From IMG/VR virus record IMGVR_UViG_3300033388_006651, positions 64,001 to 128,000 of that record: 64,000 bases of DNA. One strand, given 5' to 3'. This document shows, piece by piece, positions 5,605 to 24,813 of this stretch. Source of the DNA: a virus. Positions within the stretch are counted from its first letter, which is position 1. Each line of letters starts with the position of its first letter. Below the pieces are notes generated by a model. It made no database searches. It saw only the letters and a program-made list of their open reading frames with translations, and was not told the origin of the DNA. Both the position numbers and the translations under genes were made by a program.

Positions 5605-5638
5605 TCAAGGAGGTCCTCATAGGGGTAAAAATGATGAC

Positions 5639-6844
5639 ATGCTCGTCCTGTTCCCGTCTGACCCTTTTGAGACCTACAAGCCCGAGCCGGACTACGTCCA
5701 GGAGATCGAGATCGCAAAAGAGTGCGGCCACGAGGTTGCCTTCATCCATTGGGAAGCCCTGGTGAACGATGACGACGCTGCCGCGGCCATCAGGAAGGTT
5801 CCTGTTTTCGAGGATTCCACCCCTGCCATCTACCGGGGTTGGATGCTGACCTCCGAGCAGTACGAGAAGCTCTACGCAGAGCTCCAGATCCATGACGTTG
5901 ATCTGTTGACCACTCCCGACGCCTACCGTAAGGCCCATGAGTTCCCTGGGTGGTACTTGGAGATCCCGAAAGCGACTCCGGCGTCGGCGATCATCCAGAA
6001 GCATGAGATCAGCATGGAGAGGCTGCTCAGCAGGGCCAAGGAGATGCTCGAACAGTACGAGCACGGCATCATCATCAAGGACTACGTGAAAAGTCGGAAG
6101 CACGAGTGGGAGGAGGCGTGCTTCATCCCCGATATGTCCAAAGCTGAGGTGGTGATCGCCAACTTCCTCGAGCGCCAGGGTGACGCTCTCCAAGGCGGCG
6201 TTGTGCTCCGGGAGTTCGTGCCGCTCAAGTCGATCGGTAAGCACCCTGACTCGGGGATGCCAATGGGCGAGGAGTTCCGCATCTTCTGGATGAACGGTCG
6301 AGTGGCCGCCGCTGCGGAGTACTGGCCTTCCGAGTTCTACATCGGTGAGGAGCGTGAAGATGAGAACGCAGGTGACGGGAGCACGTACCGTGTGCCTCAT
6401 GCCCTGAGCACTCTCCCCGATCCACAGTCGCTTCTCGAACTCCTCGAAAACATCGACAACCCGTTCGTCTCGATGGACCTTGCGCGTGCCGAGGATGGTG
6501 AGTGGTTCGTCATGGAGATCGGCGACGGTCAGGTCTCTGGGCTCCCGCGCCCCAAGCTCGATGCCCGGCTCATTTACAGCCGGCTCGATCGGTTGCTCGG
6601 GCCTCCTGGGCTTGCCTCGGACGCGACACCGATGACCCAGGCACAGTTCGCCGGTATGACGTGCCACGCCGAAGGCTGCGACCACACCGGCCACGACACC
6701 GAGATGTACCTGCACCCCAAGTGCCACGTCGGTTCTCCGACCTGGGCGATTTACGAGGACGGCGTCATCAACGTGAAGTGTGCCGAGTGCAAGACGCTCG
6801 TGGTCAGAATCGCGGTTGACCCCGGTACGGTCGTCGAAGATTAG
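5639..6844 (+). CDS. ATP-grasp protein (R2K-like) with C-terminal Cys/His domain
   Basis: IYRGWML, IIKDYVKSRKHEW.EACFI, EFRIF, MDLA..EIGDGQVSG; start reassigned to ATG 5639. Confidence 0.75.
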   Translation: MLVLFPSDPFETYKPEPDYVQEIEIAKECGHEVAFIHWEALVNDDDAAAAIRKVPVFEDSTPAIYRGWMLTSEQYEKLYAELQIHDVDLLTTPDAYRKAHEFPGWYLEIPKATPASAIIQKHEISMERLLSRAKEMLEQYEHGIIIKDYVKSRKHEWEEACFIPDMSKAEVVIANFLERQGDALQGGVVLREFVPLKSIGKHPDSGMPMGEEFRIFWMNGRVAAAAEYWPSEFYIGEEREDENAGDGSTYRVPHALSTLPDPQSLLELLENIDNPFVSMDLARAEDGEWFVMEIGDGQVSGLPRPKLDARLIYSRLDRLLGPPGLASDATPMTQAQFAGMTCHAEGCDHTGHDTEMYLHPKCHVGSPTWAIYEDGVINVKCAECKTLVVRIAVDPGTVVED

Positions 6845-7611: not shown

Positions 7612-7686
7612 GCCCTTGTAGCTCAGTGGAAGAGCGCTTCCTTGGTAAGGAAGAAGTCACGAGTTCGATTCTCGTCTTGGGCTCCA
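7612..7686 (+). tRNA. tRNA-Thr(GGU)
   Basis: CTTCC TTGGTAA GGAAG; CCA end. Confidence 0.93.
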
Positions 7687-7837
7687 GGAACGCAGGACCC
7701 TCGTTCGAAGGTCACAAGCAAAAGGTAAAGACATCTGTTTTTCACACAGAAGACTGCGAGTTCGATTCTCGCCTTCCCCGCCATTTATGGGGAAGTGGTC
7801 ATAAGACGCACTCACCCCGCACACTCTCCTGCGTTCC
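7687..7837 (+). ncRNA. CACAAGC-module RNA carrying a circularly permuted tRNA-Glu(UUC)
   Basis: Outer stem GGAACGCAGGA/TCCTGCGTTCC; tRNA 3' part (7724-7783, ends GCCA) precedes the 5' part GGGGAAG-TG-GTC (7789-7804). Confidence 0.8.
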
Positions 7838-7854
7838 TTAATTTTCACCCTAAT

Positions 7855-9499: not shown

Positions 9500-9505
9500 C
9501 TAAGG

Positions 9506-9663
9506 GCAGTAGAAGTCTGCTTGCGAAATATCTCCCTTCACCGGGAAGAGACGCTAGCGAACAAAACTTCATCCTCGCAACGGAGTTGAGGGGAGAGCAG
9601 TAGGAGATCTGCTTGCGACAATAGGCCCCGTAACTGGGTATCGAAGATAGCGAACAAAACTCC
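9506..9663 (+). ncRNA. tandem pair of a structured RNA motif (GCAGTAG..TCTGCTTGCGA-hairpin-TAGCGAACAAAACT)
   Basis: Two copies, 9506-9570 and 9597-9663, with conserved flanks and different central hairpins. Confidence 0.65.
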
Positions 9664-9672
9664 AACACTTGA

Positions 9673-10245: not shown

Positions 10246-12114
10246 ATGGACAACAAAGAAACACTCGGACCCGCAGAGACCATCATCCAGTCACTGCTGG
10301 CCTACTCAGATCACATCTACCACGGCCGCCCCGGCGTCGTGGTGCCCGACGCGCGATCCACGACCGGAGTGCGATGGGACCCCGTCACCCACAAGGTCGG
10401 AGAGGACGGCGTCAAGACCGTTCTTCGCCTCACGCGAAACGGCAAGAAGACCATTCGTACCGAGATCGGCACGATGAACGGCGACAATCGTGTGAAGAAC
10501 GCGGGTGCCGATGTCGGCCTGTACCGCAAGAGCGGCCTCTTCCCAGAGGTTGCCCTGTGGTTCTACAAGCAGATCGCTGAGGTGTGGACGCTCGACAACG
10601 AATTCGCTGCTCGGTGGGCGTCGTACGCCTTCCGTCAGGAGCACCGTGACCTCAAGGTCATGCTCGCTGCGTTCATGCTCGTTCAGTCGCGTAAGGGCGA
10701 CCCCGTCATGGACGGGGGTGAGCGTCTGTTCGACGACGAGGACTACCGTGACGTGGGCGAGGCCATGGTCCTTCTCCTTGAGAAGGGCAACGACCTCAAC
10801 CCGAAGCTCCTGCTTCGGATCTACGATGTCCTGAACCTGCCCGAGATCGCAAAGATCAACCACGAGCTCGGCTTCGGCAAGTCCGCCAAGCGTCCGTTCC
10901 TCGGTCGTTGGCCCAAGGCGATCGACAAGTACCTTCGGTACCGCGAGGAGAACCCGAAGCTGCTCGAAGGGCTCGTCAACAAGGCTGCTTTCGGCAACAC
11001 CGTCAAGACTCTGGCTCGGCGTATCGGCTACAAGCCAACGTCCGACAAGTTCTTCGCTACCCTACGCTGGAAGCAGAAGCAGGCTGAAGACGGGCGTCGT
11101 GAGATGGCCATCGGTAAAGCCGTGAGGGCTGCTGAGTCGTGGGATCACCTCGACGAAGCCGGTGTTTGCGAGCTCATCGAGAAGAACAAGCCTGGCTGGA
11201 AGCGGATCGTGGGTCTCCTTCCTGCGAAGATCGGGGTCACCCGTGCGGTGATGGCTGCGACCATCGAGTCGGGCGGTCTCTCGGACAAGGATCTCATCAT
11301 CCTCACTCCAACGATCGAGGATCTTGGTCTGTTCAAGGTCCAGGAGATCAAGGCGCGTCATGCTGCGGCTCTCGCCAAGGCAAGCGACATGCGTGCGGCT
11401 AACATCGCCCGCAACGTTCGGTCCAAGGATCTCAAGGAGGAGATGGAGACCGGTGCCGACAAGGCAGCTCAGAAGGCTGCTGAGGAGGTCATCAAGAACC
11501 TGCGCCTCTACGTCGTCATCGACCGTTCGGCGTCGATGCAGGGAGCACTGGAGAAGGCGAAGCCACTGATCGCCAAGCTCATTCAGGCAATCCCAGCCGA
11601 GCGTCTGCACGTTTCGACGTTCAACACGATCGGTAAGGTGATCACCTTCAAGCACCACTCGACCGCTGGGGTCGAGGCAGCTTTCCGGGGCGTCAACGCC
11701 GGAGGGGGCACGGTGCACGCAGAAGGTGTTCGGGTTCTGGCTCAGTTCCCGCCTGCGGCAGACGAGGACTCCCTGATGATCTTCATCGGGGACGAGGGCG
11801 AGCGTCGGCACTTTGCCGAAGCTGTGGAGGCATCTGGTCTCCGTCCCCTGGCCTTCGGGCTCCTCGCCACGGTGGGTCCTCGTTGGGGTCGCGGTCAGGC
11901 GATTCGGGACACGGCTGCTCGACTGGACATCCCGTGCTTCGAGATCGATGACCGCACCTTTGATGGCGACCCGTACGCCATCCCGCGTACGATCAGGAAC
12001 CTGATCGCGGCTACCCCTGTGGGGGTGAACACCGGTCGTCGCGTCGTCCCGCGCGTGACGCTGGTGGGTCAGATCCTGGAGACCGAGATTCTCCAGAAGC
12101 CCAACTGGGCATAG
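10246..12114 (+). CDS. Ro60/TROVE-like protein with C-terminal vWA domain
   Basis: Long basic helical N-terminal region plus VIDRSASM MIDAS, GGGT, FIGDEG; the Ro60 relationship is inferred from architecture and ncRNA context; start reassigned to 10246. Confidence 0.6.
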   Translation: MDNKETLGPAETIIQSLLAYSDHIYHGRPGVVVPDARSTTGVRWDPVTHKVGEDGVKTVLRLTRNGKKTIRTEIGTMNGDNRVKNAGADVGLYRKSGLFPEVALWFYKQIAEVWTLDNEFAARWASYAFRQEHRDLKVMLAAFMLVQSRKGDPVMDGGERLFDDEDYRDVGEAMVLLLEKGNDLNPKLLLRIYDVLNLPEIAKINHELGFGKSAKRPFLGRWPKAIDKYLRYREENPKLLEGLVNKAAFGNTVKTLARRIGYKPTSDKFFATLRWKQKQAEDGRREMAIGKAVRAAESWDHLDEAGVCELIEKNKPGWKRIVGLLPAKIGVTRAVMAATIESGGLSDKDLIILTPTIEDLGLFKVQEIKARHAAALAKASDMRAANIARNVRSKDLKEEMETGADKAAQKAAEEVIKNLRLYVVIDRSASMQGALEKAKPLIAKLIQAIPAERLHVSTFNTIGKVITFKHHSTAGVEAAFRGVNAGGGTVHAEGVRVLAQFPPAADEDSLMIFIGDEGERRHFAEAVEASGLRPLAFGLLATVGPRWGRGQAIRDTAARLDIPCFEIDDRTFDGDPYAIPRTIRNLIAATPVGVNTGRRVVPRVTLVGQILETEILQKPNWA

Positions 12115-12125
12115 GAGTAAACCTC

Positions 12126-13058
12126 ATGGGATGGAGAGACCTAATCACAACCAAGGAGGAGACCACCACTCTTCCGTGGACCGGAGGACGGTCTCTCCAC
12201 TCCGGGTCCCGAACCTTCAAGCTCGGGGCCCGGCCTCGGGACTTTGGCTGGTACACCTTCGACCTCGAAGGCAACAAGGCCAAGGACCCGAAGCCCGCTG
12301 ACCCAGTTCCTGAGATTCTCAAGAGCTCCGTCAAGGGCTATCTGGTCGGGGACCGTCTGGTCCCCGATGACACCCGGATCGATCCCGACCCGGCCAAGAT
12401 CATCAACTACTCGGAGAAGGTCTACCTCCTTCCCGAAGAACTCGACCGGTTCTCGCGTGTGCGAGCCGGCCGCATTTACCCCGAGGGGCCTCTCATTTTT
12501 CTTGAGCAGGAATTCCCCCTCGGCCCCGAGGACGAAGTCATGGAAGCATTCTTCGACAACAAGATCAGCACCTTCGGTATCCGAAGCGTCGCGCCCGCAC
12601 TCGATGCGGCTTTCCGTATGGAGGTCTACCAGCGTCAGCAGGCAGAGTTCCGTCGGCAAGAACTGATCCGGCTTCGTGCCGAGGAGGAGGCACGTCTTGC
12701 CAAGGAGGAGCGCCGCAAGGAGATGATCGAGAAGCTCGGGGATGGCGCTGGCCGTCGTGCGATGGCCCAGGAAAACTTCGGTGAAGCCGCTCGGGCTGCC
12801 CTCATGGTCGGTGGTGCTCAGTACCTCGACCACCGAAAGGGAGGGCGTAAAGGTGAATGGGTCGTCAAGTATCGCGTCGATGGGCAACGCCTTGAGTGCG
12901 TGTGCGACACCAACCTCCAGATCATCGACGCAGGCGTTTGCCTTGTCGATCACGGAACCAACGAAAAGGGCGACACCTACTTCACCCTCGAATCACTGCC
13001 TGCGGTCATCCGTCAGGCCATCCGCGAGCACAAGCTCGTCGTATGGAGACACATCTAA
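12126..13058 (+). CDS. hypothetical protein of the vWA-JAB-Ubl-E1 operon
   Basis: AGGAG RBS; coiled-coil middle; ECVCD..DAGVCL C-terminal region. Confidence 0.75.
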   Translation: MGWRDLITTKEETTTLPWTGGRSLHSGSRTFKLGARPRDFGWYTFDLEGNKAKDPKPADPVPEILKSSVKGYLVGDRLVPDDTRIDPDPAKIINYSEKVYLLPEELDRFSRVRAGRIYPEGPLIFLEQEFPLGPEDEVMEAFFDNKISTFGIRSVAPALDAAFRMEVYQRQQAEFRRQELIRLRAEEEARLAKEERRKEMIEKLGDGAGRRAMAQENFGEAARAALMVGGAQYLDHRKGGRKGEWVVKYRVDGQRLECVCDTNLQIIDAGVCLVDHGTNEKGDTYFTLESLPAVIRQAIREHKLVVWRHI

Positions 13059-13633
13059 TGGAATTCAAAGACATCAACATCAAGGCCGTCGGCACCGAGG
13101 TTCTCCTCGTGGGCGGCGTCTGGGCTGGCCAGGGTCAGACCTTCGTGTGCCTGTATCCGCAAGAGGAGCAGGAAGGGGACGTTCACGTCCTCGACATGAC
13201 CCGCGAGGATTGGGCCGCACTGCTTCGGCAGTCGGACCTGATGGAGACGGAAGTTCTGGCGAAGGCCGAGGACGGAAAACTCTACAAGGCCATCGCTCGC
13301 AAGAGCCAACGCAACATCGACCAGGGCACTTCCTGGAACGTGTTCCGACGGGACGGGTACGCCTGCCGCTACTGCGGCAACGACAAGATCCCCCTTACCG
13401 TGGACCACCTCGTGCTCTGGGAAGAGGGCGGTCCTTCTCTCGAGGAGAACCTCCTGTCCGCTTGTCGCAAGTGCAACAAGGTGCGTGGCAACACGCAGTA
13501 CGCGGACTGGCTCAAGCACCCCTTCTACCTGGGGAAGTCCAAGAACCTGACGCCCGAGGTCCGAGCCGCCAATGAGGCGATCCTCGGGACTCTCGACGCC
13601 ATCCCACGGCACACCAAGAAGAGGAAGCGATAG
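13058..13633 (+). CDS. HNH endonuclease
   Basis: VFRRDGYACRYCG...TVDHL...GG....NLLSAC.KCN; start at ATG 13058. Confidence 0.85.
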   Translation: MEFKDINIKAVGTEVLLVGGVWAGQGQTFVCLYPQEEQEGDVHVLDMTREDWAALLRQSDLMETEVLAKAEDGKLYKAIARKSQRNIDQGTSWNVFRRDGYACRYCGNDKIPLTVDHLVLWEEGGPSLEENLLSACRKCNKVRGNTQYADWLKHPFYLGKSKNLTPEVRAANEAILGTLDAIPRHTKKRKR

Positions 13634-13635
13634 TC

Positions 13636-14007
13636 ATGATCGAAACAGGTCTAGTCGTAACTGACGCTGGTCCCGTCTACTGGCACCTGCCGCGAGGCAG
13701 GACCGGTGGCAGCCTTCCCGACAGCCGCTCGCTGTGGGACGTGCTGTGGGAACTCCGTAGGGAACCGTTCCTGGGAGTCGCCCACAGCCATCCGGGCTCG
13801 GGAATTCCCGGGCCGTCCATGACGGACATCACTACCTTCTCCGGGGTCGAGCTCGGGCTTGGCCGTCGGCTCACCTGGTGGATCACCAGCTCATCACACA
13901 TGATCGGCCTGAACTACGCAGGACCGACCAAGTACAACTACAACTCTTTCCCCGTGAAGGAGCCCTACTGGGCTGCGCAACTGCGGGAGTTCTCGAAAGG
14001 ACAATGA
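13636..14007 (+). CDS. JAB/MPN+ metalloprotease
   Basis: N-terminal E (ETG) and HSHPGSGIPGPSMTD JAMM motif. Confidence 0.85.
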   Translation: MIETGLVVTDAGPVYWHLPRGRTGGSLPDSRSLWDVLWELRREPFLGVAHSHPGSGIPGPSMTDITTFSGVELGLGRRLTWWITSSSHMIGLNYAGPTKYNYNSFPVKEPYWAAQLREFSKGQ

Positions 14008-14267
14008 ACATGGAAAACAACGAAGCACGCGTCAACATCACCTACGGGGGGAACAACGGGGATCTCCCTGACCCCGTCCTGTTCGACTCCACTGATGGCG
14101 ACATCAAGGGGTGGATCACGGAAGCTGTCGCAGGGGGTTCCGTCCCCGGTATCCCGGCGGACGGCAACGTGGATTTCACGGATTTCGTCGTGGATCGCTT
14201 CTCGGCTAACGCTGAGCGCGACTACAATTTAATTCAGATAAGACCTAAAACTCCATTCGGGTGTTGA
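14004..14267 (+). CDS. ubiquitin-like (beta-grasp) protein
   Basis: About 87 aa with a beta-beta-alpha-beta-beta pattern ending IRPKTPFG-C, between JAB and E1. Confidence 0.65.
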   Translation: MNMENNEARVNITYGGNNGDLPDPVLFDSTDGDIKGWITEAVAGGSVPGIPADGNVDFTDFVVDRFSANAERDYNLIQIRPKTPFGC

Positions 14268-14280
14268 CCGAAGACACCGT

Positions 14281-15243
14281 TTGGTCTACGATCAAACGGT
14301 GCCAGAAGATCTCGACCTGGATGCTCTCGTGAGCCGGTACGAGGAGGGGGCGAGTGCCGCTTCTCTCGGCCGGGATTTCGGGGTCAGCACCTGGACGGTT
14401 CTGAACCGTCTCAGGGGTGCTGGGATCCGTATTCGTTCCAACAAGGAGCAGAACGAGAAACGGCTCGATCTGGATGAGGTGCAACAGCGGCGTCTCGTTG
14501 AGATCGTAGACGGGCTCCTCCTTGGAGATGGGTCCATTGATCCCAAAGGGAGTTTGCGCATCGAACAGACTCAGGACCATTTGGGTTGGTTCGATTCGAT
14601 CCAACAAGCCCTTGGGAGTGTCGGGGCGGTTTCGCGACGCACCCCTGTCGCACCTCGCGTCCGTTTCATTAAGGATCATGAGGCGCACGGCAAAGGAGGC
14701 GCCGTCTTTTACACGCCCTGCTACGTTGAGCTCCAAGAGCAGCGGCAGCGGTGGTATCCGAAAGGAAAGAAGCGCGTCCCCGAGGATGTGCTCCTCACGC
14801 CTCTAAGCATTGCCTACTGGTTCTGTGGGGATGGTTCCTATGACAAGCCGGGATCGCTCGTGTTCTACACCAACTCTTTTTTCAAGAAGGAGACAGAGCG
14901 TTTGGCTCGGGGCCTTACCAAGCTCGGTGTTCGGGCCCGGTGTCGTCCTGTGGGACAACACCGATACCGCGAATGGAAAATCCACATCCTTCGGCGTGAC
15001 GATGCCCTGCGGCTTCGTGAACTGATGGGGGATCATGTGCCGGAGTGTTTCCAGTACAAGTTCGTATACGTCCGAGCGGCCATTCCACCAGGTTCTACGA
15101 CCGCTAAGCTGACTTTCACGCAGGCCCAGGAAATCCGGGAGCGTACAAAGAACGGGGAAACCCAGACGGCGCTGGCCAAGGAATTCGGGGTCTCCCAAAC
15201 CGCGATCCGCCAGATCGTTCGCGGGAAAGTCCACAAGCCATGA
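14281..15243 (+). CDS. free-standing LAGLIDADG homing endonuclease with HTH domains
   Basis: GLLLGDGS and AYWFCGDGS motifs; WYPKGKK.VP. Confidence 0.85.
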   Translation: MVYDQTVPEDLDLDALVSRYEEGASAASLGRDFGVSTWTVLNRLRGAGIRIRSNKEQNEKRLDLDEVQQRRLVEIVDGLLLGDGSIDPKGSLRIEQTQDHLGWFDSIQQALGSVGAVSRRTPVAPRVRFIKDHEAHGKGGAVFYTPCYVELQEQRQRWYPKGKKRVPEDVLLTPLSIAYWFCGDGSYDKPGSLVFYTNSFFKKETERLARGLTKLGVRARCRPVGQHRYREWKIHILRRDDALRLRELMGDHVPECFQYKFVYVRAAIPPGSTTAKLTFTQAQEIRERTKNGETQTALAKEFGVSQTAIRQIVRGKVHKP

Positions 15244-15464: not shown

Positions 15465-15729
15465 AAATTACGATCATGAAAATTACGATCATCGATTGCA
15501 GGGACACTCGTGTGTCTAAGGAGCAGAACTCGTGATCGGGAAATACATTCTGGCCGGCAATACCTCCCACCTGTGGGGGTGCGAAATACATGTCTGCTCT
15601 CTTTGTGGGCAACATCAAGACTCGGCCGAAGAAACATGTCCTGAAGGGCGCCGCATGATGGGTTTTCGAATTTCGACTGGGGATGCCAAAAGCATCAAGG
15701 AGATACCAACATGAAAATTACGATCATCG
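15461..15729 (+). repeat. direct repeats of the ThiF gene start (TGAAAATTACGATCA) x3
   Basis: Copies at 15462, 15477 and 15712. Confidence 0.85.
15532..15714 (+). CDS. small Cys-rich hypothetical protein
   Basis: HVCSLCG...TCP; coupled to the ThiF start. Confidence 0.45.
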   Translation: MIGKYILAGNTSHLWGCEIHVCSLCGQHQDSAEETCPEGRRMMGFRISTGDAKSIKEIPT

Positions 15730-16280
15730 GAGTCGGAGCACTGGGCTCACACCTCGTGCAAGCTCTTCGGAACGAGAAGGTGACCCTCAAGGTCATCGAC
15801 TTCGACCGCGTCGAGATGAAGAACGTCGCTTCTCAGTTTCACTTCAAGAACGGAGTGGGCAAAAAGAAGGTCGATGCTCTCAAGCAGGCGATGCAATTCT
15901 GCTACGGCCGGAAGATCGAGATCGTGGGCAACAAGCTCACGGCGGACAACGTTGACCAGCTCCTGGGCGACGCTGACCTGCTCGTGGACTGCCTGGACAA
16001 CGGAGAAGCCCGGACGCTCGTCCAGGGCTTCGCTCGAGCCAATGGGGTGCCGTGCGTGCACGGAGCTCTTGCGGCCGATGGTGGCTTCGGTAGGGCCGTA
16101 TGGACTTCCGGTTTTGTTATTGACAGCGAGACATTGGGTGCGGCAACATGTGAAGACGGTGCCTTCCTCCCGTTCATCCAGCTCGTTGCCACACGCCTCG
16201 CGTACGTCGTCCAGCGATTCCTCCAAACTGGGGAGAAGCACAACTTCAACATCTTCCCCGGCGGCGTCACTAAATTCTAG
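15711..16280 (+). CDS. ThiF/MoeB/E1-like adenylyltransferase
   Basis: IIGVGALG, IDFDRVEMKN..SQ, GKKKV, VDCLDN..AR; candidate catalytic Cys in ATCED. Confidence 0.9.
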   Translation: MKITIIGVGALGSHLVQALRNEKVTLKVIDFDRVEMKNVASQFHFKNGVGKKKVDALKQAMQFCYGRKIEIVGNKLTADNVDQLLGDADLLVDCLDNGEARTLVQGFARANGVPCVHGALAADGGFGRAVWTSGFVIDSETLGAATCEDGAFLPFIQLVATRLAYVVQRFLQTGEKHNFNIFPGGVTKF

Positions 16281-16284
16281 GGCC

Positions 16285-17265
16285 GTGTGTCGAGGGACCC
16301 GGCGCACTGCTCACCTCGACATTGACGCGCTCGTGCGGGGTTACGAAACCGGCGACAGTGCCCAGACGCTGGCGAAGAAATTCAACACTGGACGTTCCAC
16401 CGTACTCACCCGGTTACGGGAAGCCGGGGTGCGAATTCGGCGTCCTTCTGAATGGGAAGAGAAACATCTGGTTCTCCTCCCCCAACACGAGGAACCTTTC
16501 ATCGAGCTCCTTGATGGCCTCATGCTCGGAGACGGCACTCTCCCTCGTGACGGGGGGCTTCGCATTGAACAGAGCCATGTGCGTCACGGGTGGTTGAAAG
16601 ACATCCAACAGGAGCTGCGGGGTTTTGGGGTGAAGAGTACGATGGACGAAGTTATACGGCCCGAAAGGGCCCGCAAAGACGGACGAATCCTTTCGGCCTA
16701 TAGGGGGTTTCTTTTGCGCACTCCTGCTTACGTTGAACTTCGCTCACAACGACAGCGATGGTATCCAGGTGATGTAAAACGCATTCCTGACGATGTGCGT
16801 ATCACCAAAAAATCTGTTGCGGCCTGGGTAAGTGGGGACGGCACAGGAGGTAAGAAGGGCACGCTGGTTCTTTGCACCGATGATTTCACCGAAGAAGGAG
16901 TCGGTCTGCTGATTGACCGACTCAAAGAGGTTTTTAATGTTAAGGCTCGACGCGTTTCAGGTGAACGACCTCGAGTCGGCCTTTACCGGAAAAATGATGT
17001 GCTCCGACTTCGTGAGGTCCTTCTCCCACACATGTCGAAATGCTGTCGGTACAAGTTCCAACACGCCCGTGGCGCCCAAAGGAAAGGGAAACTCCCCGAG
17101 GCGTCCGTGCAGGCTATTCGTGGAAAGTACGACGAGGGGGTCACGTTGAGCGTGATCGCAAAGGAGCATGGGCTGAGTCGGTCAGCCGTCAACAACATTG
17201 GTCTGCGGAAAGTGTACAAGTGGGTGGCTGAGACGGCCGTTCCAGCCACCGTCGAAGAAAGTTGA
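16285..17265 (+). CDS. free-standing LAGLIDADG homing endonuclease, paralogue of 14281
   Basis: GLMLGDGT, AAWVSGDG, YVELRSQRQRWYP shared with the paralogue; start uncertain. Confidence 0.85.
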   Translation: MCRGTRRTAHLDIDALVRGYETGDSAQTLAKKFNTGRSTVLTRLREAGVRIRRPSEWEEKHLVLLPQHEEPFIELLDGLMLGDGTLPRDGGLRIEQSHVRHGWLKDIQQELRGFGVKSTMDEVIRPERARKDGRILSAYRGFLLRTPAYVELRSQRQRWYPGDVKRIPDDVRITKKSVAAWVSGDGTGGKKGTLVLCTDDFTEEGVGLLIDRLKEVFNVKARRVSGERPRVGLYRKNDVLRLREVLLPHMSKCCRYKFQHARGAQRKGKLPEASVQAIRGKYDEGVTLSVIAKEHGLSRSAVNNIGLRKVYKWVAETAVPATVEES

Positions 17266-17275
17266 AAAAAAGTGG

Positions 17276-17304
17276 TTGACTTCCCTCAGCCCCCGATCCA
17301 ATCT
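17276..17304 (+). promoter_or_regulatory. sigma70-like promoter of the ncRNA array
   Basis: TTGACT-N17-CAATCT. Confidence 0.55.
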
Positions 17305-17317
17305 GTTCGTCCAGGCT

Positions 17318-17401
17318 GTTTCCCACGCGCAGGTCTCACAAGCACAACCCCGGTCCGAAGTGACCGGGACACTGAAGCCTCCCAGACCGCGCCCTCGAAA
17401 C
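17318..17401 (+). ncRNA. CACAAGC-module RNA with a simple hairpin payload
   Basis: GTTTC/GAAAC P1, GGTCT/AGACC P2, CACAAGCA. Confidence 0.6.
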
Positions 17402-17414
17402 TACCTACAACTAA

Positions 17415-17547
17415 GCCGGATATGACCCGTGGTGGGTCACCAACCTTCCAAGTTGGCTAACAATCCGACACCTGCACTCACCCCTTCACAGGGGTACTCG
17501 GCAAAATGTCTACAAGCATCTGCCTGGTTCGACTCCAGGATCCGGCT
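17415..17547 (+). tRNA. tRNA-Gly(UCC) with a ~60-nt module insertion in the variable loop
   Basis: GCCGGAT/ATCCGGC-U, CCAAC CTTCCAA GTTGG, CCTGG TTCGACT CCAGG. Confidence 0.75.
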
Positions 17548-17552
17548 CTAAA

Positions 17553-17678
17553 GAAGCAACCACTGCCCGTAAGGCTCACAAGCAAAGTAGCTCAGTGTAG
17601 AGCGTCTGTCCTGAAAACAGAAGGTCGCGGTTTCATCACCGTCCTTGCAACAAACCAGCTTTTCCACTCGGTCGCTTC
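17553..17678 (+). ncRNA. CACAAGC-module RNA with a degenerate tRNA-like payload (CCTGAAA loop)
   Basis: GAAGCAACC/GGTCGCTTC P1, GGCT/AGCT P2, TAGCTCAG..AGAGC D arm. Confidence 0.72.
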
Positions 17679-17716
17679 TTAACTTTTTCACTCAGCAGCA
17701 GTACACAACATAACAT

Positions 17717-17848
17717 GGAGGACATGACCCCGATGGGGGGTCGCCCGACGGTAAATCGGTAAAACCGACACCACCACTCGCTTCTTCACGGAAGCACTCG
17801 GCGAATGTCTACAAGCAACTCTTGGTTCGAATCCAGGGTCCTCCACCA
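17717..17848 (+). tRNA. tRNA-Tyr(GUA)-like with a ~60-nt module insertion in the variable loop
   Basis: GGAGGAC/GTCCTCC-ACCA, CGGTAAA loop (G33), GGTTCGAATCC. Confidence 0.72.
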
Positions 17849-17978
17849 GAAGCAACCACCACGCCTAGACTCACAAGCGAAAGTAGCTCACTCGGTAGAG
17901 CGCGTCCCTGATAAGGATGAGGAGCTGGTTCGATCCCGGCCCTTTGCAACAAAACAGTCTTTCGACTCGGTCGCTTCT
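17848..17978 (+). ncRNA. CACAAGC-module RNA with a tRNA-Ile(GAU)-like payload
   Basis: Same P1 as 17553, AGACT/AGTCT P2, CGTCC CTGATAA GGATG. Confidence 0.75.
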
Positions 17979-17986
17979 AACTTTTC

Positions 17987-18134
17987 GATCAACGCACCAG
18001 ATCAATCTCACAAGCAAATTGTTGGTTCGATTCCAACCTTCCCCACCTATGGGGAAGTGGGCAAATGGTAAAGCCACCGGTATATTAAACCGGCGTTTCA
18101 AAACGCAACTCCAGGTTTTTCACTCGCGTTGATC
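17987..18134 (+). ncRNA. CACAAGC-module RNA with a circularly permuted tRNA-like payload
   Basis: GATCAACGC/GCGTTGATC P1; order is T arm, CTTCCCC-loop-GGGGAAG, D arm, anticodon arm. Confidence 0.78.
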
Positions 18135-18146
18135 AACTAACCCCGT

Positions 18147-18190
18147 CCCCGGGCGCTGCTCCTCAAAGAGCCGCCCGGGGATTTCTTTTT
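18147..18190 (+). terminator. intrinsic terminator closing the ncRNA array
   Basis: CCCCGGGCG...CGCCCGGGG followed by ATTTCTTTTT. Confidence 0.75.
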
Positions 18191-19350: not shown

Positions 19351-19923
19351 ATGGCCGCCCAATTCGACAAGCTGCTGGTGCTGGACTTGGATGAGACTCT
19401 CATCCACACCACCGGTTTTGGGTTCCCTGGAGACCCTCCGGAGAACACCGCGGACTTTTTCGTGGACGACGGATTCTTCGCCGTCCACAAGCGCCCCGGA
19501 GTGGGGGCGTTCCTGGCCTGGTGCCTGGAGAATTTCCGAGGGGTGGGCGTCTGGACTGCGGGGACTCGGGGCTATGCTCTGGAGATCCTCCCGCACCTGT
19601 GCGACCCCAACGATTTCATGTTCGTCTGGGGCCGAGAGCGTTGTGGGTCCCGGCGCGACATGGAGGCCCAGGAGACGCACTGGGTGAAGGACATCGCCAA
19701 GCTACACAACCTCGGCTTCTCCAAATCCCAAATTTTGTGTGTGGATGACATCCCGCAGAATTTCGCGCGTAGCTATGGGAACTATATCCAAGTGCGGCCG
19801 TTCCAGGGGGACCGCTCCGACAACGAGCTTGAGTACCTGCGTCGCTACCTCGAGACACTCGGCTCGGTGCCCAACGTGCGTACCATCGAGAAGCGAGGAT
19901 GGCGCCCTACGAGTCCGGCATGA
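19351..19923 (+). CDS. HAD phosphatase of the FCP1/NIF family
   Basis: LVLDLDETLIH, KRPG..FL, WTAG...YA, KD, VDD. Confidence 0.9.
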   Translation: MAAQFDKLLVLDLDETLIHTTGFGFPGDPPENTADFFVDDGFFAVHKRPGVGAFLAWCLENFRGVGVWTAGTRGYALEILPHLCDPNDFMFVWGRERCGSRRDMEAQETHWVKDIAKLHNLGFSKSQILCVDDIPQNFARSYGNYIQVRPFQGDRSDNELEYLRRYLETLGSVPNVRTIEKRGWRPTSPA

Positions 19924-21523
19924 TCGTGATCAGGGTTCCGTCGAACTTCCGAAGGTCGAACCCTGTGATCGTCTCGTTGTAGGTGGCCAGCACGTTTTTG
20001 AGGTACTGGATGGCGACCTTTTCACCAAGCAGGATGCCCTCGTCACCGTCGCTGCGGTAGTGGACGCCGGCCATGTTGCGGGCCGTGGAGAGGTTGCTGG
20101 CGAGTTTTCCGAGTTCGGAGCTGACCGTGATCACATCGACCACGGCAGGGGTGGTGATGGCGGCAGCATCAAGCTCGGCCATCGTCTCGTCTCCGGTGAT
20201 GGATTCCACGATTTTGAAGGTCCCGCTGTCCAGGTCCTTCATCAGGGTGTCGCCGTCGAAGAACGCCTTGAGGAGCGTCGCACAGGCCCCAGAAAGGACG
20301 GCATGGCCTGCCGGGTAACTCGGGTGCGTAGGACTACCCTCCGGGTACATGAGCGGCAGGAGGTACGTGGCGCTTCCGTTGAGGGTGTTGGCTGCCAGCA
20401 TGTTGGCTGTGGTCGTTGCACCCAAGACGGAGGCATCCAACAAGTAGTCCTGGGCATCGTCGAGGGTGAAGTGGACGCGACCGGCGTAGACCTCTGGACG
20501 TAGACGCATGTGGGCCACCCACTTCTGCCGCCACGCTGCTTTGAGTGCCAGCTCTGAGACGTGAAAAACGCGGTCGAGAATCTCGCCGGCTCCGAGAGTG
20601 ACGAAGCCGTCCTCGTTTGCCAGGACGGGGATGTTCGGGTCCAGGGGCGCACCGTTCTGGAGCAGGATCTGCGCTGCGTTGAAGAACGCCAGGCCAGGAG
20701 GGTCGTTGTGAACGTAGCTTCCGAGTACTCGAGGAGAGAACGCGCGTTTGCGGGTGCCCGTCAGGTTGGCGCCGTTTGGCGTGATGCCATTTTGGATGTC
20801 GAGCCACCCTGCGGTGGTGATCGATGGAGCCGCATCGCTCTCGGTTTCGATCTCCTGGGCGACGGCGATGTTCCCCATGTTGAAATCGTGCAGGAGAAAT
20901 TGGCTGACGTACGGTCCCACCGTTTCGTCGTACCCAGTTCCACGAAAGAGCGTCCCGCGCGTGACGACGCCACCGTCTTTGGGCCCCATGAACGATCCAG
21001 CCAGGGCGTTTAGATCGGTGAGGAGGGAGGTGACGACGGGTTCTTGAGATGTGGTGCCGTTCTGGATTGCGTTGAACGATTCGTCACGAAGGAGGGCCAT
21101 GCCGTAGACCTCGATCATCTCGCCACCGGCCTCGGTAGAGGTCATGGACGGGGCTGCTGGCATCGAGACCGAGTAGGCATCTGCGCCGCTGAGGCTGAAC
21201 GCCAGAGCGGCCTGGGGATTCGTCAATTTACGAACCGCACCGGTGGCACGCACGATGCGATCGAAGTAGCTCTGGTCCCCGCTGCGGAGGGCCACCTCCA
21301 TATTCACGAAGTTCTGATCGGTGACTTCGCCGTAGCTGTTGTGCGGCAGTGTTTTCGAGTAGAGCGCCGTGCGGTAGAGAGTGCCGGCGCGATCGATGAC
21401 GAGGGCCCGATCGTTGTTGAGCGGTTGGACGACATCTGCCTCTGACCGTTGGAAATTTGCCCGGTCGATACGGAAGTCGTATGGGAGCCCGGTGGGGTCG
21501 GAGGGATCTTGGCGCTTCGGCAT
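19907..21523 (-). CDS. vanadium-dependent haloperoxidase
   Basis: QKW..H.RLRPE, SPTHPSYPAGHA, RNMAGVHYRSD vanadate-binding motifs. Confidence 0.9.
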   Translation of the reverse strand: MPKRQDPSDPTGLPYDFRIDRANFQRSEADVVQPLNNDRALVIDRAGTLYRTALYSKTLPHNSYGEVTDQNFVNMEVALRSGDQSYFDRIVRATGAVRKLTNPQAALAFSLSGADAYSVSMPAAPSMTSTEAGGEMIEVYGMALLRDESFNAIQNGTTSQEPVVTSLLTDLNALAGSFMGPKDGGVVTRGTLFRGTGYDETVGPYVSQFLLHDFNMGNIAVAQEIETESDAAPSITTAGWLDIQNGITPNGANLTGTRKRAFSPRVLGSYVHNDPPGLAFFNAAQILLQNGAPLDPNIPVLANEDGFVTLGAGEILDRVFHVSELALKAAWRQKWVAHMRLRPEVYAGRVHFTLDDAQDYLLDASVLGATTTANMLAANTLNGSATYLLPLMYPEGSPTHPSYPAGHAVLSGACATLLKAFFDGDTLMKDLDSGTFKIVESITGDETMAELDAAAITTPAVVDVITVSSELGKLASNLSTARNMAGVHYRSDGDEGILLGEKVAIQYLKNVLATYNETITGFDLRKFDGTLITIMPDS

Positions 21524-21574
21524 CTCACTTGAGTCCCGGCTATAGGAGGGTCAGTGGTTTTCTGAACAAAACCC

Positions 21575-21602
21575 TTGACTCTGCGTCTGAGGCGAGTACA
21601 TT
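21575..21602 (+). promoter_or_regulatory. sigma70-like promoter of the His/Phe tRNA cluster
   Basis: TTGACT-N16-TACATT. Confidence 0.6.
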
Positions 21603-21680
21603 CGGTTTCAAGGTAACTCTCATGTTGACGCAAGCACATACCCAGCTCCCCGATGCGGGAGCCGACTACAACACCATCAT

Positions 21681-21757
21681 GGTGTCCGTAGCTCAGTTGG
21701 TAGAGCGTTCGCTTGTGACGCGAGAGGCCGCGGGTTCAAACCCCGTCGGACACCCCA
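21681..21757 (+). tRNA. tRNA-His(GUG)
   Basis: G-1/C73, TTCGC TTGTGAC GCGAG, CCA end. Confidence 0.95.
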
Positions 21758-21842
21758 AAAACCGCACTTCCGTGCAGTTTAGCTAGCCGAGGCTTCCCTT
21801 CGTCTTTGGGACGAAGTGGAGCTTCGGCACGCCGCATTTTAT

Positions 21843-21917
21843 GCCGCGGAAGCTGACTTGGTACGCAAGCGCTGGACTGAAAATCCGGAGGTGACAGTTC
21901 GATTCTGTCCCGCGGCA
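21843..21917 (+). tRNA. tRNA-Phe(GAA)
   Basis: GCCGCGG/CCGCGGC-A, CTGGA CTGAAAA TCCGG. Confidence 0.92.
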
Positions 21918-21939
21918 CAACCTAGAAGGAAACAAGACA

Positions 21940-22134
21940 ATGTCACTCATGTTCACTAATTACGATCGCCACACCATGTGCACGCATGCTGGCCTCCTTG
22001 GTCAAAAGGCCAAGGACGGAACCCAGACGTGTGTTCGTTGCGGCAAGACGGTTCTCCCTGCAGATGTGGAGCGCTTTACGAGGCCGGCTGGACGCAAGTC
22101 CGGTCGGCAGACTCAAGGCACTACCCCTTTGTAG
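21940..22134 (+). CDS. small Zn-ribbon-like protein ending inside tRNA-Phe
   Basis: GAAGGA RBS; CTH...CVRC. Confidence 0.5.
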   Translation: MSLMFTNYDRHTMCTHAGLLGQKAKDGTQTCVRCGKTVLPADVERFTRPAGRKSGRQTQGTTPL

Positions 22135-22201
22135 CTGAGATAGATTCAAGCGCGCGGTTGAAGCCCGCGAGACTCGGGTGCGAGCACCGACTGAGGGACC
22201 A
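22125..22201 (+). tRNA. atypical tRNA-Phe(GAA)
   Basis: CGCGG TTGAAGC CCGCG; ACCA end; non-canonical T loop GTGCGAG. Confidence 0.7.
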
Positions 22202-22219
22202 CAACGGTAGGATAGCAAC

Positions 22220-22735
22220 ATGATTCTCTGCACAGACGTGGACTACAACGACGACGGAACAGCCGTCGCCGCAGGCGTGACTCTCGAGAACTGGTCGGAC
22301 GACCACGCGCTCGAGGAGCTCGTGGTGCACGTCGATGCCGTCGAACCTTACGTGCCCGGTCAGTTCTACAAGCGAGAACTTCCGTGCATCCAAGCCATCA
22401 TGGCGAAGCTGACTGGTGTCAGCCTCGTCATCGTGGACGGGTACACGTGGCTCTCGCCAGGACGCCCAGGTTTGGGAGCCCACCTGTGGGGTGATCTTGG
22501 GGGCTCGATCCCAGTGGTCGGTGTCGCCAAGGCGTACTTCAAAGATACGACGGCCACCGAAGTGTTCCGAGGTACCAGCAAGCGCCCGCTGTATGTGTCA
22601 GCCCAAGGGATGGACGACAGCGACGCGAGCATCCTGGTGCGCAACATGGCCGGGCGCAATCGGTTCCCGGAGATGCTCAAGCGCGTGGATCACCTGTGCC
22701 GGGGCCATGTTCTCCCGAAAGCGACGGCGTCATGA
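22220..22735 (+). CDS. nfi: endonuclease V
   Basis: DVDY, PYVPGQFYKRELP, VDGY, G.HL, VGVAK. Confidence 0.88.
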   Translation: MILCTDVDYNDDGTAVAAGVTLENWSDDHALEELVVHVDAVEPYVPGQFYKRELPCIQAIMAKLTGVSLVIVDGYTWLSPGRPGLGAHLWGDLGGSIPVVGVAKAYFKDTTATEVFRGTSKRPLYVSAQGMDDSDASILVRNMAGRNRFPEMLKRVDHLCRGHVLPKATAS

Positions 22736-22941
22736 TCTCGGGATTCGGCGGGTTCGGCGGTGCCGCGCCTGCAGCCACCCTCGTCACGGGGGATCACTGT
22801 GGTGCCGTGAGCACCGCATAGAGGTTTTCTGGAACTACAAGCGTGGAAGCCTCTCCTGGGAGGATTTCGTGCAGTACTACGGAGTTGACCCGGAAAGAGG
22901 CTCGATCGTTTGTCGGGAACCCGGGTATAAGGACTGACCAC

Positions 22942-23044
22942 GCCCAAGTAGCTCAGTGCAAGTCTGCGGTCACACGTTTCTTGCTTGGTAGAGCGGTCGG
23001 CTTAAACTCCGATGCGTCGAAGGTTCAAATCCTCTCCTTGGGCA
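22942..23044 (+). tRNA. tRNA-like RNA with a D-loop hairpin insertion and 8-nt CUUAAACU anticodon loop
   Basis: GCCCAAG/CTTGGGC-A, GCTC/GAGC D stem interrupted by GCAAG..CTTGC, GGTTCAAATCC. Confidence 0.65.
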
Positions 23045-23087
23045 CCGAAATTATGTAAATTCTTCCCCCGCTCCGTGTACCTCTCAG

Positions 23088-23312
23088 ATGATTAAGATCG
23101 ACCATACACAGCCGAATGCTGAGAAACTGGTAGGGCGTCTCGCGAACTGGAAGTTCAAGTCAGCCCTCCAGCACCTGGAGGGTCAATCGGACGAAGTCGT
23201 GGAGACGGTGAAGACACTCTCCACCATGTTCAGCAACTCGGGATGGTTTGAGGGCAACATGGGGCATCTAGTTAGTGTGGTCGTTCAGACCCTCGTGGAG
23301 TCCCACGAATGA
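23088..23312 (+). CDS. hypothetical protein
   Basis: 74-aa ORF just after the TGTAAA motif. Confidence 0.6.
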   Translation: MIKIDHTQPNAEKLVGRLANWKFKSALQHLEGQSDEVVETVKTLSTMFSNSGWFEGNMGHLVSVVVQTLVESHE

Positions 23313-23321
23313 GACAACATC

Positions 23322-24167
23322 ATGGAGAAATTAACTGTAGCAGGCGTGACCCTCGAAGGGTTCGCGCAAGGAGGGTGGCAGACTTCGATCTACTGCCCCG
23401 AAGTGAGAGCGGTTTTTGACGCGGGCTACGCCTTGCGTGCAAACGTAGAGAACTACTTCATCACGCACAGCCATCCCGACCACATCATGGCGCTCCCCTA
23501 CATTGTGGGGCGCCGGGCGGTGTCGGCTGAGCGCAAGAAGATGATCATCCACGTCCCCGAGCAGATTCGGGAACTGACCGCTACGGTGATCCTCGGAAGC
23601 TGTCGCCTCTTCGGCGATCGGTGTCCCGAGGACTTCGTCGAAATCGTCGGGGTCAAGCCCGGCGACTCGATCACGCTCAGCAAGCAGCACAGCGTCCAGG
23701 TGCTGCCTACGGTTCACCGTGGGCCCACCGTGGGTTACGTGGTCATGCAGCACACCCAGAAGCTCAAGCCCGAGTACGAGGGCATTGAGGGGCGTGAGCT
23801 GGGCCGTCTCCGTGGGGAGGGGGTCGAGATCACCGCAGCCCGTGTGTCGCCGATGCTGGCGATCCCTGGTGACACCCAGATCGAGTTCCTGCTCAACAAC
23901 GAGCTGGCTCGAAAGGCCAAGGTCCTCGTTCACGAGGTCACGGTCTGGGACGAGGGGTTCAACAACGTCGAAGGCTGCCGTCGCTACGGCCACACGCACA
24001 TCGCGGAGATGGTCGAGCACGCGCACAAGTTCGAGGGAGAGGCTCTCGTGCTTTGCCACCGCTCTATGCGGTGGACCCGGAAAGAGATCGAGGCGATCGC
24101 TCGTCGTCGGTTCCCAGAAGAGGTGCTCAAGAAGCTCCACTTCTTCGACGGTGGCGATCGCCTGTGA
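23322..24167 (+). CDS. RNase Z-like metallo-beta-lactamase (tRNA 3' processing)
   Basis: FDAG, ITHSHPDH, H.GP..GY, KLKPEY..L.G arm, GDT, HE.T, GHTH, LCH.S.R. Confidence 0.82.
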   Translation: MEKLTVAGVTLEGFAQGGWQTSIYCPEVRAVFDAGYALRANVENYFITHSHPDHIMALPYIVGRRAVSAERKKMIIHVPEQIRELTATVILGSCRLFGDRCPEDFVEIVGVKPGDSITLSKQHSVQVLPTVHRGPTVGYVVMQHTQKLKPEYEGIEGRELGRLRGEGVEITAARVSPMLAIPGDTQIEFLLNNELARKAKVLVHEVTVWDEGFNNVEGCRRYGHTHIAEMVEHAHKFEGEALVLCHRSMRWTRKEIEAIARRRFPEEVLKKLHFFDGGDRL

Positions 24168-24279
24168 TACCTTGGCGATGATGGCAGGCGCGCTCTGGTT
24201 CCTGTCCATCGCCCCTCTCCCTGACCAAGCTGCGTATCCCTGGCCCGGGGAACGCTAGCCGGGAGAGGGGCCAGGGCGC

Positions 24280-24813
24280 TTACGGGTTGAATTTACCGCC
24301 GGGGAAATCGTAGATCGTCACCGGGATTCCGTGAGTCACGAAATGCTCGTCGATGAGCACTTCGATCCGAGCCCAGGAGCCGCCTGCGAGCCAGCAGCCC
24401 AGCCTGGGCATGTGAATTGAAACATTGCGTTCAGGGTTCTTGAGAGCGTACGCAGCCAGGTATTTGAATCCCTGGCTGATGGCCTTGTAGCGGATGGGGG
24501 GCTCACCGCCTTTGGCGGTACGGATGCCCTGTTGTCCGATGATGTTGGCGACCGCGATGTTCTCTTCAACAGGGACGAGCTGCATCGCCCCGAGGGGAAG
24601 TTTGTTGTCCCATTTCGATGCCCATAGCCGGTACATCTCTTCGGGGCGAGCCCATTGCTTGGAGAGCGACATTACGAATCCGGCGCCCCATGCCCCGATA
24701 CTGTTTGAACAATGTGCGATGATCTTGAGACCGTCACCCTCTGGCGCAGTGGCGTCGCCCTCGACATACATGACGAGGGGGGAGGGGGTCTGCTTTTTCG
24801 CGGCTGCCATCAC
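24280..24813 (-). CDS. macro domain protein (Poa1/TARG1-like)
   Basis: YVEGDAT, IAHCSN..G.WGAGF, HMPRLGC.LAGGSW. Confidence 0.85.
   Translation of the reverse strand: MMAAAKKQTPSPLVMYVEGDATAPEGDGLKIIAHCSNSIGAWGAGFVMSLSKQWARPEEMYRLWASKWDNKLPLGAMQLVPVEENIAVANIIGQQGIRTAKGGEPPIRYKAISQGFKYLAAYALKNPERNVSIHMPRLGCWLAGGSWARIEVLIDEHFVTHGIPVTIYDFPGGKFNP

What the first reader, a model, noticed from the sequence alone, without database searches (positions are those of the whole stretch)
17276..18190. Candidate new ncRNA family: one covarying module grafted onto tRNAs at three different positions
Seven copies (six here between a promoter and a terminator, one at 7687) share P1-AC...P2-YACAAGC-[payload]-C-P2'...(A)CTC-P1'. 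P2 covaries (GGT/ACC, GGTCT/AGACC, GGCT/AGCT, AGACT/AGTCT, AATCT/AGGTT, TGTC/GACA), as does P1, while the unpaired YACAAGC and ACTC are fixed. The tRNA payload is attached via the acceptor end (x2), the variable loop (x3) or the D-loop (x1), and one copy carries a plain hairpin. Either the tRNA or the module is circularly permuted. The array directly follows the Ro60-like/Ubl operon. Inference: either a protein-binding handle presenting different tRNA faces as bait or sensors for host tRNA-attacking enzymes (Y-RNA logic with a non-Y motif), or a removable processing element.
Basis: partly seen in the sequence, partly recalled or inferred. Interest (0 to 1): 0.95.

Follow-up and report, generated by a model that had tools for sequence, protein, structure and literature searches.

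The report
Y-like tRNA mimics with new handle
A giant phage carries seven small RNA genes that join tRNA-shaped parts to one shared, undescribed RNA handle, which occurs almost only beside a Ro60-shaped RNA-binding protein and a ubiquitin-like tagging kit, suggesting an unknown RNA-protein particle rather than a new tRNA intron.

Summary
Observation confirmed. All seven copies share one bipartite module: a closing stem, a loop with NCTC, a 9-10 nt covarying helix, then YACAMGC opposite an invariant C. A pairing-blind scan found 196 distinct copies in 81 related loci (shuffles: 2), and the top covariation signals fall on this helix. No Rfam family matches, and the Y RNA motif is absent.

The module travels with a five-gene set (vWA protein, unknown 310-aa protein, JAB, Ubl, ThiF) in jumbo phages and Myxococcota genomes, down to 24-30% protein identity. 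20 of 22 module-bearing viral records found by DNA alone carry the vWA gene. That protein's predicted fold matches Ro60/TROVE best.

The payloads look like tRNA mimics, not excisable tRNAs: acceptor stems are often truncated, anticodon loops are relaxed, and some payloads are not tRNA. Best reading: a Y-RNA-like handle that tethers tRNA mimics to a divergent Ro60. Binding, expression and any link to Ubl tagging are inferred, not shown. This scan noted the same system earlier on other genomes (e1-5677377, e1-4043239, e1-5468934). I found no paper describing it.

The parts
7686..7838 (+). RNA 0: module wrapped around a permuted tRNA-Glu(UUC)-like domain broken in the D-loop; inside the tRNA operon
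   Evidence: same D-loop graft in L002, L044, L087, L112
17276..17304 (+). likely sigma70-type promoter of the array (inferred)
   Evidence: same position in 7 relatives; not called by the scanner
17314..17400 (+). RNA 1: module with a plain hairpin payload, no tRNA
17415..17548 (+). RNA 2: tRNA-Gly(UCC)-like, long D-stem, module inside-out in the variable loop (17466-17517)
   Evidence: MFE equals the model, z -3.65
17553..17678 (+). RNA 3: module grafted on a shortened, mismatched acceptor stem; anticodon UGA, no CCA
17717..17848 (+). RNA 4: tRNA-Tyr(GUA)-like with G33 and encoded CCA; module in the variable loop (17766-17816)
17849..17977 (+). RNA 5: acceptor-grafted, anticodon GAU (ARAGORN calls it tRNA-Ile); payload replaced in another strain
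   Evidence: run X7 joint 17875-17941
17987..18134 (+). RNA 6: module around a permuted tRNA (T arm, loop-closed acceptor, D arm, anticodon arm), YrlA-like order
   Evidence: z -4.39
18145..18190 (+). intrinsic-terminator-like hairpin with a U tract
   Evidence: z -5.4
10246..12114 (+). 622-aa Ro60/TROVE-fold protein (helical region plus vWA with intact MIDAS), the likely RNA partner
12126..13058 (+). 310-aa unknown: two OB-like domains (weak), a long helix, and a C-terminal domain with invariant Cys258 and Cys272
13058..13633 (+). HNH protein, optional (an HNH match occurs in 40 of 94 loci, often outside the operon)
13636..14007 (+). JAB/MPN+ peptidase-like (weak hits, below the Pfam cut-off)
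14004..14267 (+). 87-aa ubiquitin-like candidate ending PFG-C; family consensus ends in PFG with or without a short tail. Fold not tested
15711..16280 (+). ThiF/E1-like adenylating enzyme

Best explanation
The module is a permanent protein-binding handle, the functional equivalent of the Ro60-binding stem of Y RNAs, for the divergent Ro60-like protein encoded upstream. Two sequence-specific internal loops (YACA/C and NCTC) are held about one helical turn apart by a helix whose sequence is free. Because the handle is a double-stranded insert, it can be grafted in either permutation onto any arm of a tRNA-derived domain. Each RNA then shows a different tRNA face: elbow plus anticodon arm, elbow plus free acceptor end, or a loop-closed acceptor. 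The payloads are mimics that recruit or occupy tRNA-binding proteins; they are not precursors of decoding tRNAs. Shown here: structure, conservation, mimic features, gene linkage and the predicted Ro60 fold. Inferred: transcription, processing to single RNAs, direct binding. More speculative: the particle delivers the captured protein to the co-encoded Ubl/E1/JAB set (JAB exposes the Gly, ThiF activates it, a Cys of the 310-aa protein may accept it) during phage-host conflict or stress.
For: Covariation without pairing in the selection: the top four MI-APC pairs are the four P2 positions, and P1 pairs also rank high. RNAalifold recovers P2 unaided, with 88% of cells paired against 23-48% for slid partners. 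Spacing is fixed: C to NCTC is 9 nt in 164 and 10 nt in 30 of 194 copies. The 11 best Foldseek hits of the protein model are all Ro60/TROVE (best E 1.7e-8), and 414 residues (12-590) align to 1yvp. Linkage: module in at least 73 of 94 long loci, more with motif variants; 20 of 22 records found by DNA pattern alone carry the gene; module-type RNAs near 8 of 9 protein-positive genomes among 401 drawn from the phylum of Paraliomyxa, while 16 protein-negative pattern hits were ordinary tRNAs; TACAAGC tRNA mimics still flank homologues at 24-30% identity. Mimic features: D-loop GG kept in 100% and a 7-bp acceptor stem in 83 of 87 insertion copies, but a canonical anticodon loop in only 32% against 86% in real tRNAs. 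Precedent: YrlA is a Ro60-binding module plus a permuted tRNA mimic (PMC4201824; 10.1101/312249).
Against: No binding or expression data. The known Ro60-binding motif is absent (8 of 194 chance-level matches). The protein has no TROVE Pfam or sequence match to solved Ro60, so homology rests on a predicted fold (pTM 0.60, TM-score about 0.4), and isolated vWA domains score Z 13.8 against 12.8 for Ro60. All five genes travel together, so linkage cannot tell which protein binds; the 310-aa OB-like protein is an alternative. One 109-kb, 68%-complete record has three modules and no detected gene. Loci are related by descent, so counts are not independent.
Confidence: 0.72

Rival explanations
1. The module is a removable element (a new tRNA intron or permutation signal) that is cut out and ligated to give working tRNAs.
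For: Insertion and permuted layouts mirror intron-containing and permuted tRNA genes. After best-case in-silico excision ARAGORN of 87 insertion copies and 54 of 55 permuted copies. The discriminator base fits the anticodon in 58% of insertion copies against 36% shuffled. An RNase Z homologue is 5 kb away.
Against: Acceptor-grafted copies have 2-6 nt of acceptor strand in 30 of 43 cases and rarely CCA. Anticodon loops are relaxed, A34 occurs in 20-33% against 4%, and D-stems are 5-7 bp. In permuted copies the discriminator does not track the anticodon (45% against 45%). More than ten copies carry no tRNA. Junction linkers vary in length and sequence.
Confidence: 0.07
2. The RNAs form a particle as proposed, but the handle binds another operon product, most likely the 310-aa protein with OB-like domains, with Ro60-like binding secondary.
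For: The 310-aa gene is present in 93 of 94 loci, and its N-terminal half resembles OB folds (Z 4-5 only).
Against: The fold matches are weak. Every characterised Ro60 binds a small structured RNA encoded nearby (PMC4201824, PMC12135203). In distant systems the RNAs often sit immediately beside the Ro60-like gene.
Confidence: 0.12
3. The RNAs are free decoys for host anticodon nucleases or other tRNA-targeting toxins; the module only stabilises or releases them, and the operon link is genomic neighbourhood in a tRNA island.
For: The anticodon arm is free in the graft types classified; anticodons are diverse; one strain swaps a payload. Macro-domain, phosphatase and RNase Z genes lie nearby.
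Against: Stabilisation does not need invariant unpaired bases at fixed spacing. The link holds in bacterial genomes without tRNA arrays (L108). Non-tRNA payloads exist.
Confidence: 0.06
4. The module is a small self-cleaving ribozyme occurring in two circular permutations.
For: Natural circular permutation is common in small ribozymes (own knowledge).
Against: No Rfam ribozyme hit. Few invariant bases. Cleavage would break the insertion-type RNAs. It does not explain the tight link to one protein family.
Confidence: 0.03

Closest known systems
Bacterial and phage Y RNAs of the YrlA type (Rfam RF02553) with Ro60/Rsr (PMC4201824; 10.1101/312249); Thermus phage phiLo Ro60 with Yrl1/Yrl2 (PMC12135203)
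   Same: Two-part RNA of about 90-150 nt (conserved stem-loop handle plus tRNA-like domain), often permuted with a loop-closed acceptor; elbow conserved; several RNAs encoded near a helical-ring plus vWA/MIDAS protein on the same strand.
   Different: No GNCGAA or GGUCCGA motif; handle motifs are YACAMGC and C-N9-NCTC. YrlA is attached at the anticodon stem and lacks the anticodon loop; here the handle is on the acceptor end, variable loop or D-loop, the anticodon arm is kept, and the handle itself can be permuted into an ordinary-order tRNA. The protein has no TROVE Pfam match and an extra N-terminal beta region. Partner genes are Ubl/JAB/E1, not RtcB/RtcA.
Circularly permuted and intron-containing tRNA genes (Cyanidioschyzon merolae, archaea; own knowledge)
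   Same: 3' half before 5' half; breaks in the D-loop or variable region.
   Different: No bulge-helix-bulge was apparent by inspection; products would often not be canonical tRNAs; non-tRNA payloads exist.
tRNA-Sec, allo-tRNAs and irregular tRNA polycistrons (PMC5389517, PMC7609411)
   Same: Insertion-type copies have a long D-stem with a 3-5 nt loop, a long variable-region insert, and diverse anticodons.
   Different: 7/5 acceptor/T-stem rather than 8/4, 9/3 or 8/5; the insert is a conserved shared module; no such module appears in the passages read.
Dictyostelium Class I RNA (RF01414; PMC7919456) and the ACAGCAA-handle phage RNAs noted earlier by this scan
   Same: Stem with free sequence followed on its 5' strand by a conserved unpaired A/C-rich box, with a variable interior.
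   Different: The box here is YACAMGC (0 of 194 copies have ACAGCAA); there is a second conserved NCTC loop and outer stem; no RF01414 hit.
Prokaryotic Ubl systems with E1 and JAB (SAMP/UbaA/JAMM, CBASS Cap2/Cap3, Bil; own knowledge)
   Same: ThiF-like E1, JAB-like peptidase, small protein ending in Gly or Gly plus a short tail.
   Different: No E2 fold detected; linked to a Ro60-like protein and RNAs.

Membership tests
Y RNA / YrlA | Score above the RF02553 gathering threshold | tested here: not met
   best 24.4 bits against 69, and on ordinary tRNAs; array 9.9 bits
Y RNA / YrlA | GNCGAAN0-1G or GGUCCGA Ro60-binding motif in the handle | tested here: not met
   8 of 194 and 0 of 194; the GGTCCGA in the RNA 1 payload is not conserved in L001 or L010
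Y RNA / YrlA | tRNA-like domain with conserved D and T loops | tested here: met
   (T loop partly by selection)
Y RNA / YrlA | Handle replaces the anticodon arm | tested here: not met
   anticodon arm retained in the classes parsed
Y RNA / YrlA | Encoded near, and on the same strand as, a Ro60-fold gene | tested here: met
   196 of 196 copies on the gene's strand, median 5.4 kb from its start
Y RNA / YrlA | Bound by Ro60 | not testable with these tools
   needs EMSA or pull-down
Ro60/TROVE protein | Helical repeat region plus vWA domain, aligned over the whole length | tested here: met
   Foldseek top 11 hits are Ro60/TROVE; 414 and 410 residues aligned to 1yvp and 2nvo; predicted model only, ring closure not inspected
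Ro60/TROVE protein | MIDAS motif | tested here: met
   D426, S428, S430, T489, D516 invariant in 81 homologues
Ro60/TROVE protein | Pfam TROVE (PF05731) match | tested here: not met
Permuted or intron-containing tRNA genes | Removal yields a canonical tRNA in all graft classes | tested here: not met
   truncated acceptors, relaxed anticodon loops, non-tRNA payloads
Permuted or intron-containing tRNA genes | Ligated product seen in RNA | not testable with these tools
   no RNA holder listed
Dictyostelium Class I RNA | RF01414 match or ACAGCAA box | tested here: not met
allo-tRNA / tRNA-Sec | 8/4, 9/3 or 8/5 acceptor/T-stem | tested here: inconclusive
   copies parse well as 7/5 (83 of 87 perfect 7-bp acceptors); longer acceptor registers were not scored
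Known self-cleaving ribozymes | Rfam ribozyme family match | tested here: not met
Ubl conjugation system | E1, JAB and a small protein with terminal or maskable Gly | tested here: met
   (Gly at the last, second-last or third-last position in 86 of 108); beta-grasp fold not tested
Ubl conjugation system | E2 enzyme | tested here: inconclusive
   310-aa protein has invariant Cys but no E2 among fold hits

The most novel reading that the evidence does not exclude
The RNAs are interchangeable substrate adaptors for a ubiquitin-like ligase: the Ro60-like ring holds the handle, the tRNA-shaped payload captures a specific tRNA-binding protein (nuclease, synthetase, stringent-response or translation factor), and the E1/Ubl/JAB set tags it. 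That would be RNA-programmed protein tagging, retargetable by swapping payloads.
Probability: 0.2. Interest if true: 0.93.

Novelty: new variant of a known kind. Interest (0 to 1): 0.72.

Why it matters
The RNA family is absent from Rfam and from the papers I could search, and some members are mis-called as tRNAs by standard tools. It extends the Ro60-Y RNA principle to a handle with a different sequence and to graft points not seen in YrlA, including a handle permuted into an intact tRNA. What the tRNA-like domain of bacterial Y RNAs binds is an open question (10.1101/312249); a natural series with one handle and several displayed tRNA faces makes it directly testable. The near-universal link to E1, JAB and a Ubl candidate would connect RNA surveillance with protein tagging. 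A cultured host with a one-RNA version exists (Paraliomyxa miuraensis, L108).

Tried and rejected
Rfam at gathering and E-value thresholds on the window and six related loci gave only tRNA (and one SRP RNA). YrlA and Class I RNA models on the whole record gave nothing meaningful. Public runs: no RNA holder listed, so nothing can be said on expression; DNA contigs showed no module-deleted form. Sequence search of the protein against PDB gave no hit for the single sequence and only vWA domains for the profile. No RtcB or TROVE match in this 28%-complete record, which does not show absence. Fold searches of the 310-aa protein gave no significant match. Complex prediction and the atlas fold library were not available. 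Relaxed ARAGORN was noise. My first anticodon-loop picker sometimes chose the D arm for the insertion and permuted classes; those numbers are replaced. R-scape is not available, so covariation has no phylogeny-corrected p-value, and the sets were chosen or aligned partly on pairing. Five full-text searches aimed at this system found no description; the supplement of PMC5389517 is not held, and I could not search most subscription journals.

Full report
Context. The window lies in a 146,769-nt virus record estimated 28% complete, so the full genome is probably about 500 kb (inferred). Relatives carrying the same genes are IMG/VR records of up to 619 kb and contigs of mostly Myxococcota genomes, including the isolate Paraliomyxa miuraensis. 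The DNA occurs in marine sediment and cold-seep metagenomes.

Observation. The module is an irregular duplex: outer stem P1, an internal loop with NCTC on one strand, an inner helix P2 of up to about 9 pairs (the 4-5 next to the motif are best kept), and a loop with YACA opposite an invariant C. In acceptor-grafted copies the final GC of YACAMGC usually pairs with a downstream GC. It occurs in two permutations. In type A the module's ends are the RNA's ends and it wraps the payload. In type B, P1 is a hairpin and the module sits in the variable loop of an ordinary-order tRNA. Single-sequence folding gives the modelled structure for RNAs 1, 2 and 6 but not for RNAs 3, 4 and 5, so the structure claim rests on comparative evidence.

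Beyond chance. Selecting only on the two sequence motifs, their spacing and a T-loop, with no pairing filter, gave 196 distinct copies in 81 loci, all on the strand of the vWA gene; shuffled loci gave 2. The four highest corrected mutual-information scores are the four P2 pairs (0.27-0.38, background sd 0.04), followed by further P2 and P1 pairs. On 46 type-B inserts RNAalifold predicts P2 unaided, and all five pairs show two-sided changes. A covariance model built from them finds 174 matches in 98 loci and no further type-B copy in this record.

Graft catalogue. Of 253 distinct scan hits, 87 are variable-loop insertions, 55 are permuted with the T arm first, at least 49 are acceptor-grafted, 5 are broken in the D-loop, and more than ten have no tRNA payload; some remaining hits are false positives in coding sequence. 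One copy appears to start at the anticodon arm (L131:7429).

Are the payloads tRNAs? Acceptor-grafted copies have 2-9 nt between the motif G and position 8, fewer than 7 in 30 of 43, and CCA in 6 of 43, so most cannot give a normal acceptor stem. Their anticodon loops are fairly canonical (69%). Insertion copies keep a perfect 7-bp acceptor (83 of 87) and the D-loop GG (100%), but have 5-7 bp D-stems, a canonical Y32-U33-R37 loop in 32% against 86% of neighbouring tRNAs parsed the same way, and A34 in 20% against 4%. Their discriminator base still fits the anticodon more often than shuffled (58% against 36%; real tRNAs 89%), so some may be chargeable; in permuted copies it does not. One related strain keeps the module and replaces the payload of RNA 5. 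This pattern fits mimics under selection for the elbow and overall shape, and argues against a removable element.

The partner. The 622-aa ORF has only a C-terminal vWA Pfam hit and an invariant MIDAS. Its AlphaFold model (pLDDT 85, pTM 0.60) retrieves Ro60/TROVE structures as the 11 best Foldseek hits. Among the top 50 rows of the wide search only Xenopus and Deinococcus Ro60 align over about 410 residues; the others align 144-181 residues, nearly all within the vWA domain. It is therefore Ro60-like by predicted fold but not a TROVE member by sequence.

Linkage. In 94 loci with enough downstream DNA, the 310-aa gene is in 93, Ubl in 92, ThiF in 89, JAB in 88, and a strictly scored module in 73; several scored as zero carry motif variants on inspection. 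In the reverse direction, DNA-only scans of viral contigs gave 22 records with a convincing module, and 20 carry the gene; the exceptions are a 5.6-kb fragment and a 68%-complete record. Some of these records are near-duplicates. Among 401 genomes drawn from the phylum of Paraliomyxa, 9 have the protein and 8 of them have module-type RNAs nearby, whereas acceptor-pattern hits in 16 protein-negative genomes are ordinary tRNAs; that negative test covers the acceptor class only. Homologues at 24-30% identity still have TACAAGC tRNA mimics beside them in 6 of 10 distinct loci, sometimes with an altered NCTC strand, and usually keep ThiF nearby.

Comparison. It works like YrlA, a Ro60-binding module plus a permuted tRNA mimic, but fails the YrlA model, the motif and the graft-point tests. 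It is not a Class I RNA, not a listed ribozyme, and does not match the allo-tRNA descriptions read. The one GenBank phage with the protein, Rctr197k, has it unannotated beside a tRNA array, with a module-type RNA after ThiF. Literature searches found no description. Earlier unchecked notes of this scan describe the same system in other genomes; they are not independent support.

Mechanism. Most likely (0.72) the array is transcribed from the conserved promoter, cut into single RNAs, and each binds the Ro60-like protein through its two conserved loops, presenting a tRNA face to a tRNA-binding protein. The Ubl candidate has a conserved PFG end, often with a masking residue, as expected for JAB trimming and E1 activation. 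MIDAS domains can bind ubiquitin-like domains (a midasin MIDAS-UBL complex appears), which offers a physical link. That the captured protein is tagged is speculative (0.2). Verdict: a real, undescribed RNA family and a new variant of the Ro60-Y RNA kind; interest 0.72.

Noticed in passing
window 9504-9575 and 9598-9672: Two similar end-closed stem elements with a hairpin interior inside the tRNA operon, sharing two short boxes; no Rfam hit and not found in other fetched loci.
   Followed up: partly
L002:15904-15996: A phage-encoded bacterial small SRP RNA (57.7 bits) directly follows the module array.
   Followed up: no
L201:3150-3990: A second array of five type-B modules about 220 kb from the vWA gene in a 436-kb phage record, so arrays need not be adjacent to the gene.
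   Followed up: partly
L443:9770-10150: Three clear type-B modules in a 109-kb, 68%-complete viral record with no detected vWA gene.
   Followed up: partly
window 12126-13058: The N-terminal half weakly resembles the tandem OB domains of the mycobacterial proteasomal ATPase Mpa (Z 3.9-4.5, not significant); invariant Cys residues in the C-terminal domain.
   Followed up: partly
window 14281-15243 and about 16290-17265: Two HTH-LAGLIDADG-HTH homing endonuclease-like genes interrupt the operon; matches occur in only 11 of 94 relatives.
   Followed up: partly
window 19351-24813: FCP1-like phosphatase, RNase Z and a DarG-like macro domain cluster near the array; an R2K-clade ATP-grasp protein lies at 5210-6844.
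   Followed up: partly
L051:5039-5126: A type-B module whose P1 carries a second TACAAGC-bearing hairpin, a possible internal duplication.
   Followed up: no
window 21843-21917: A tRNA found by Rfam but missed by default ARAGORN.
   Followed up: no
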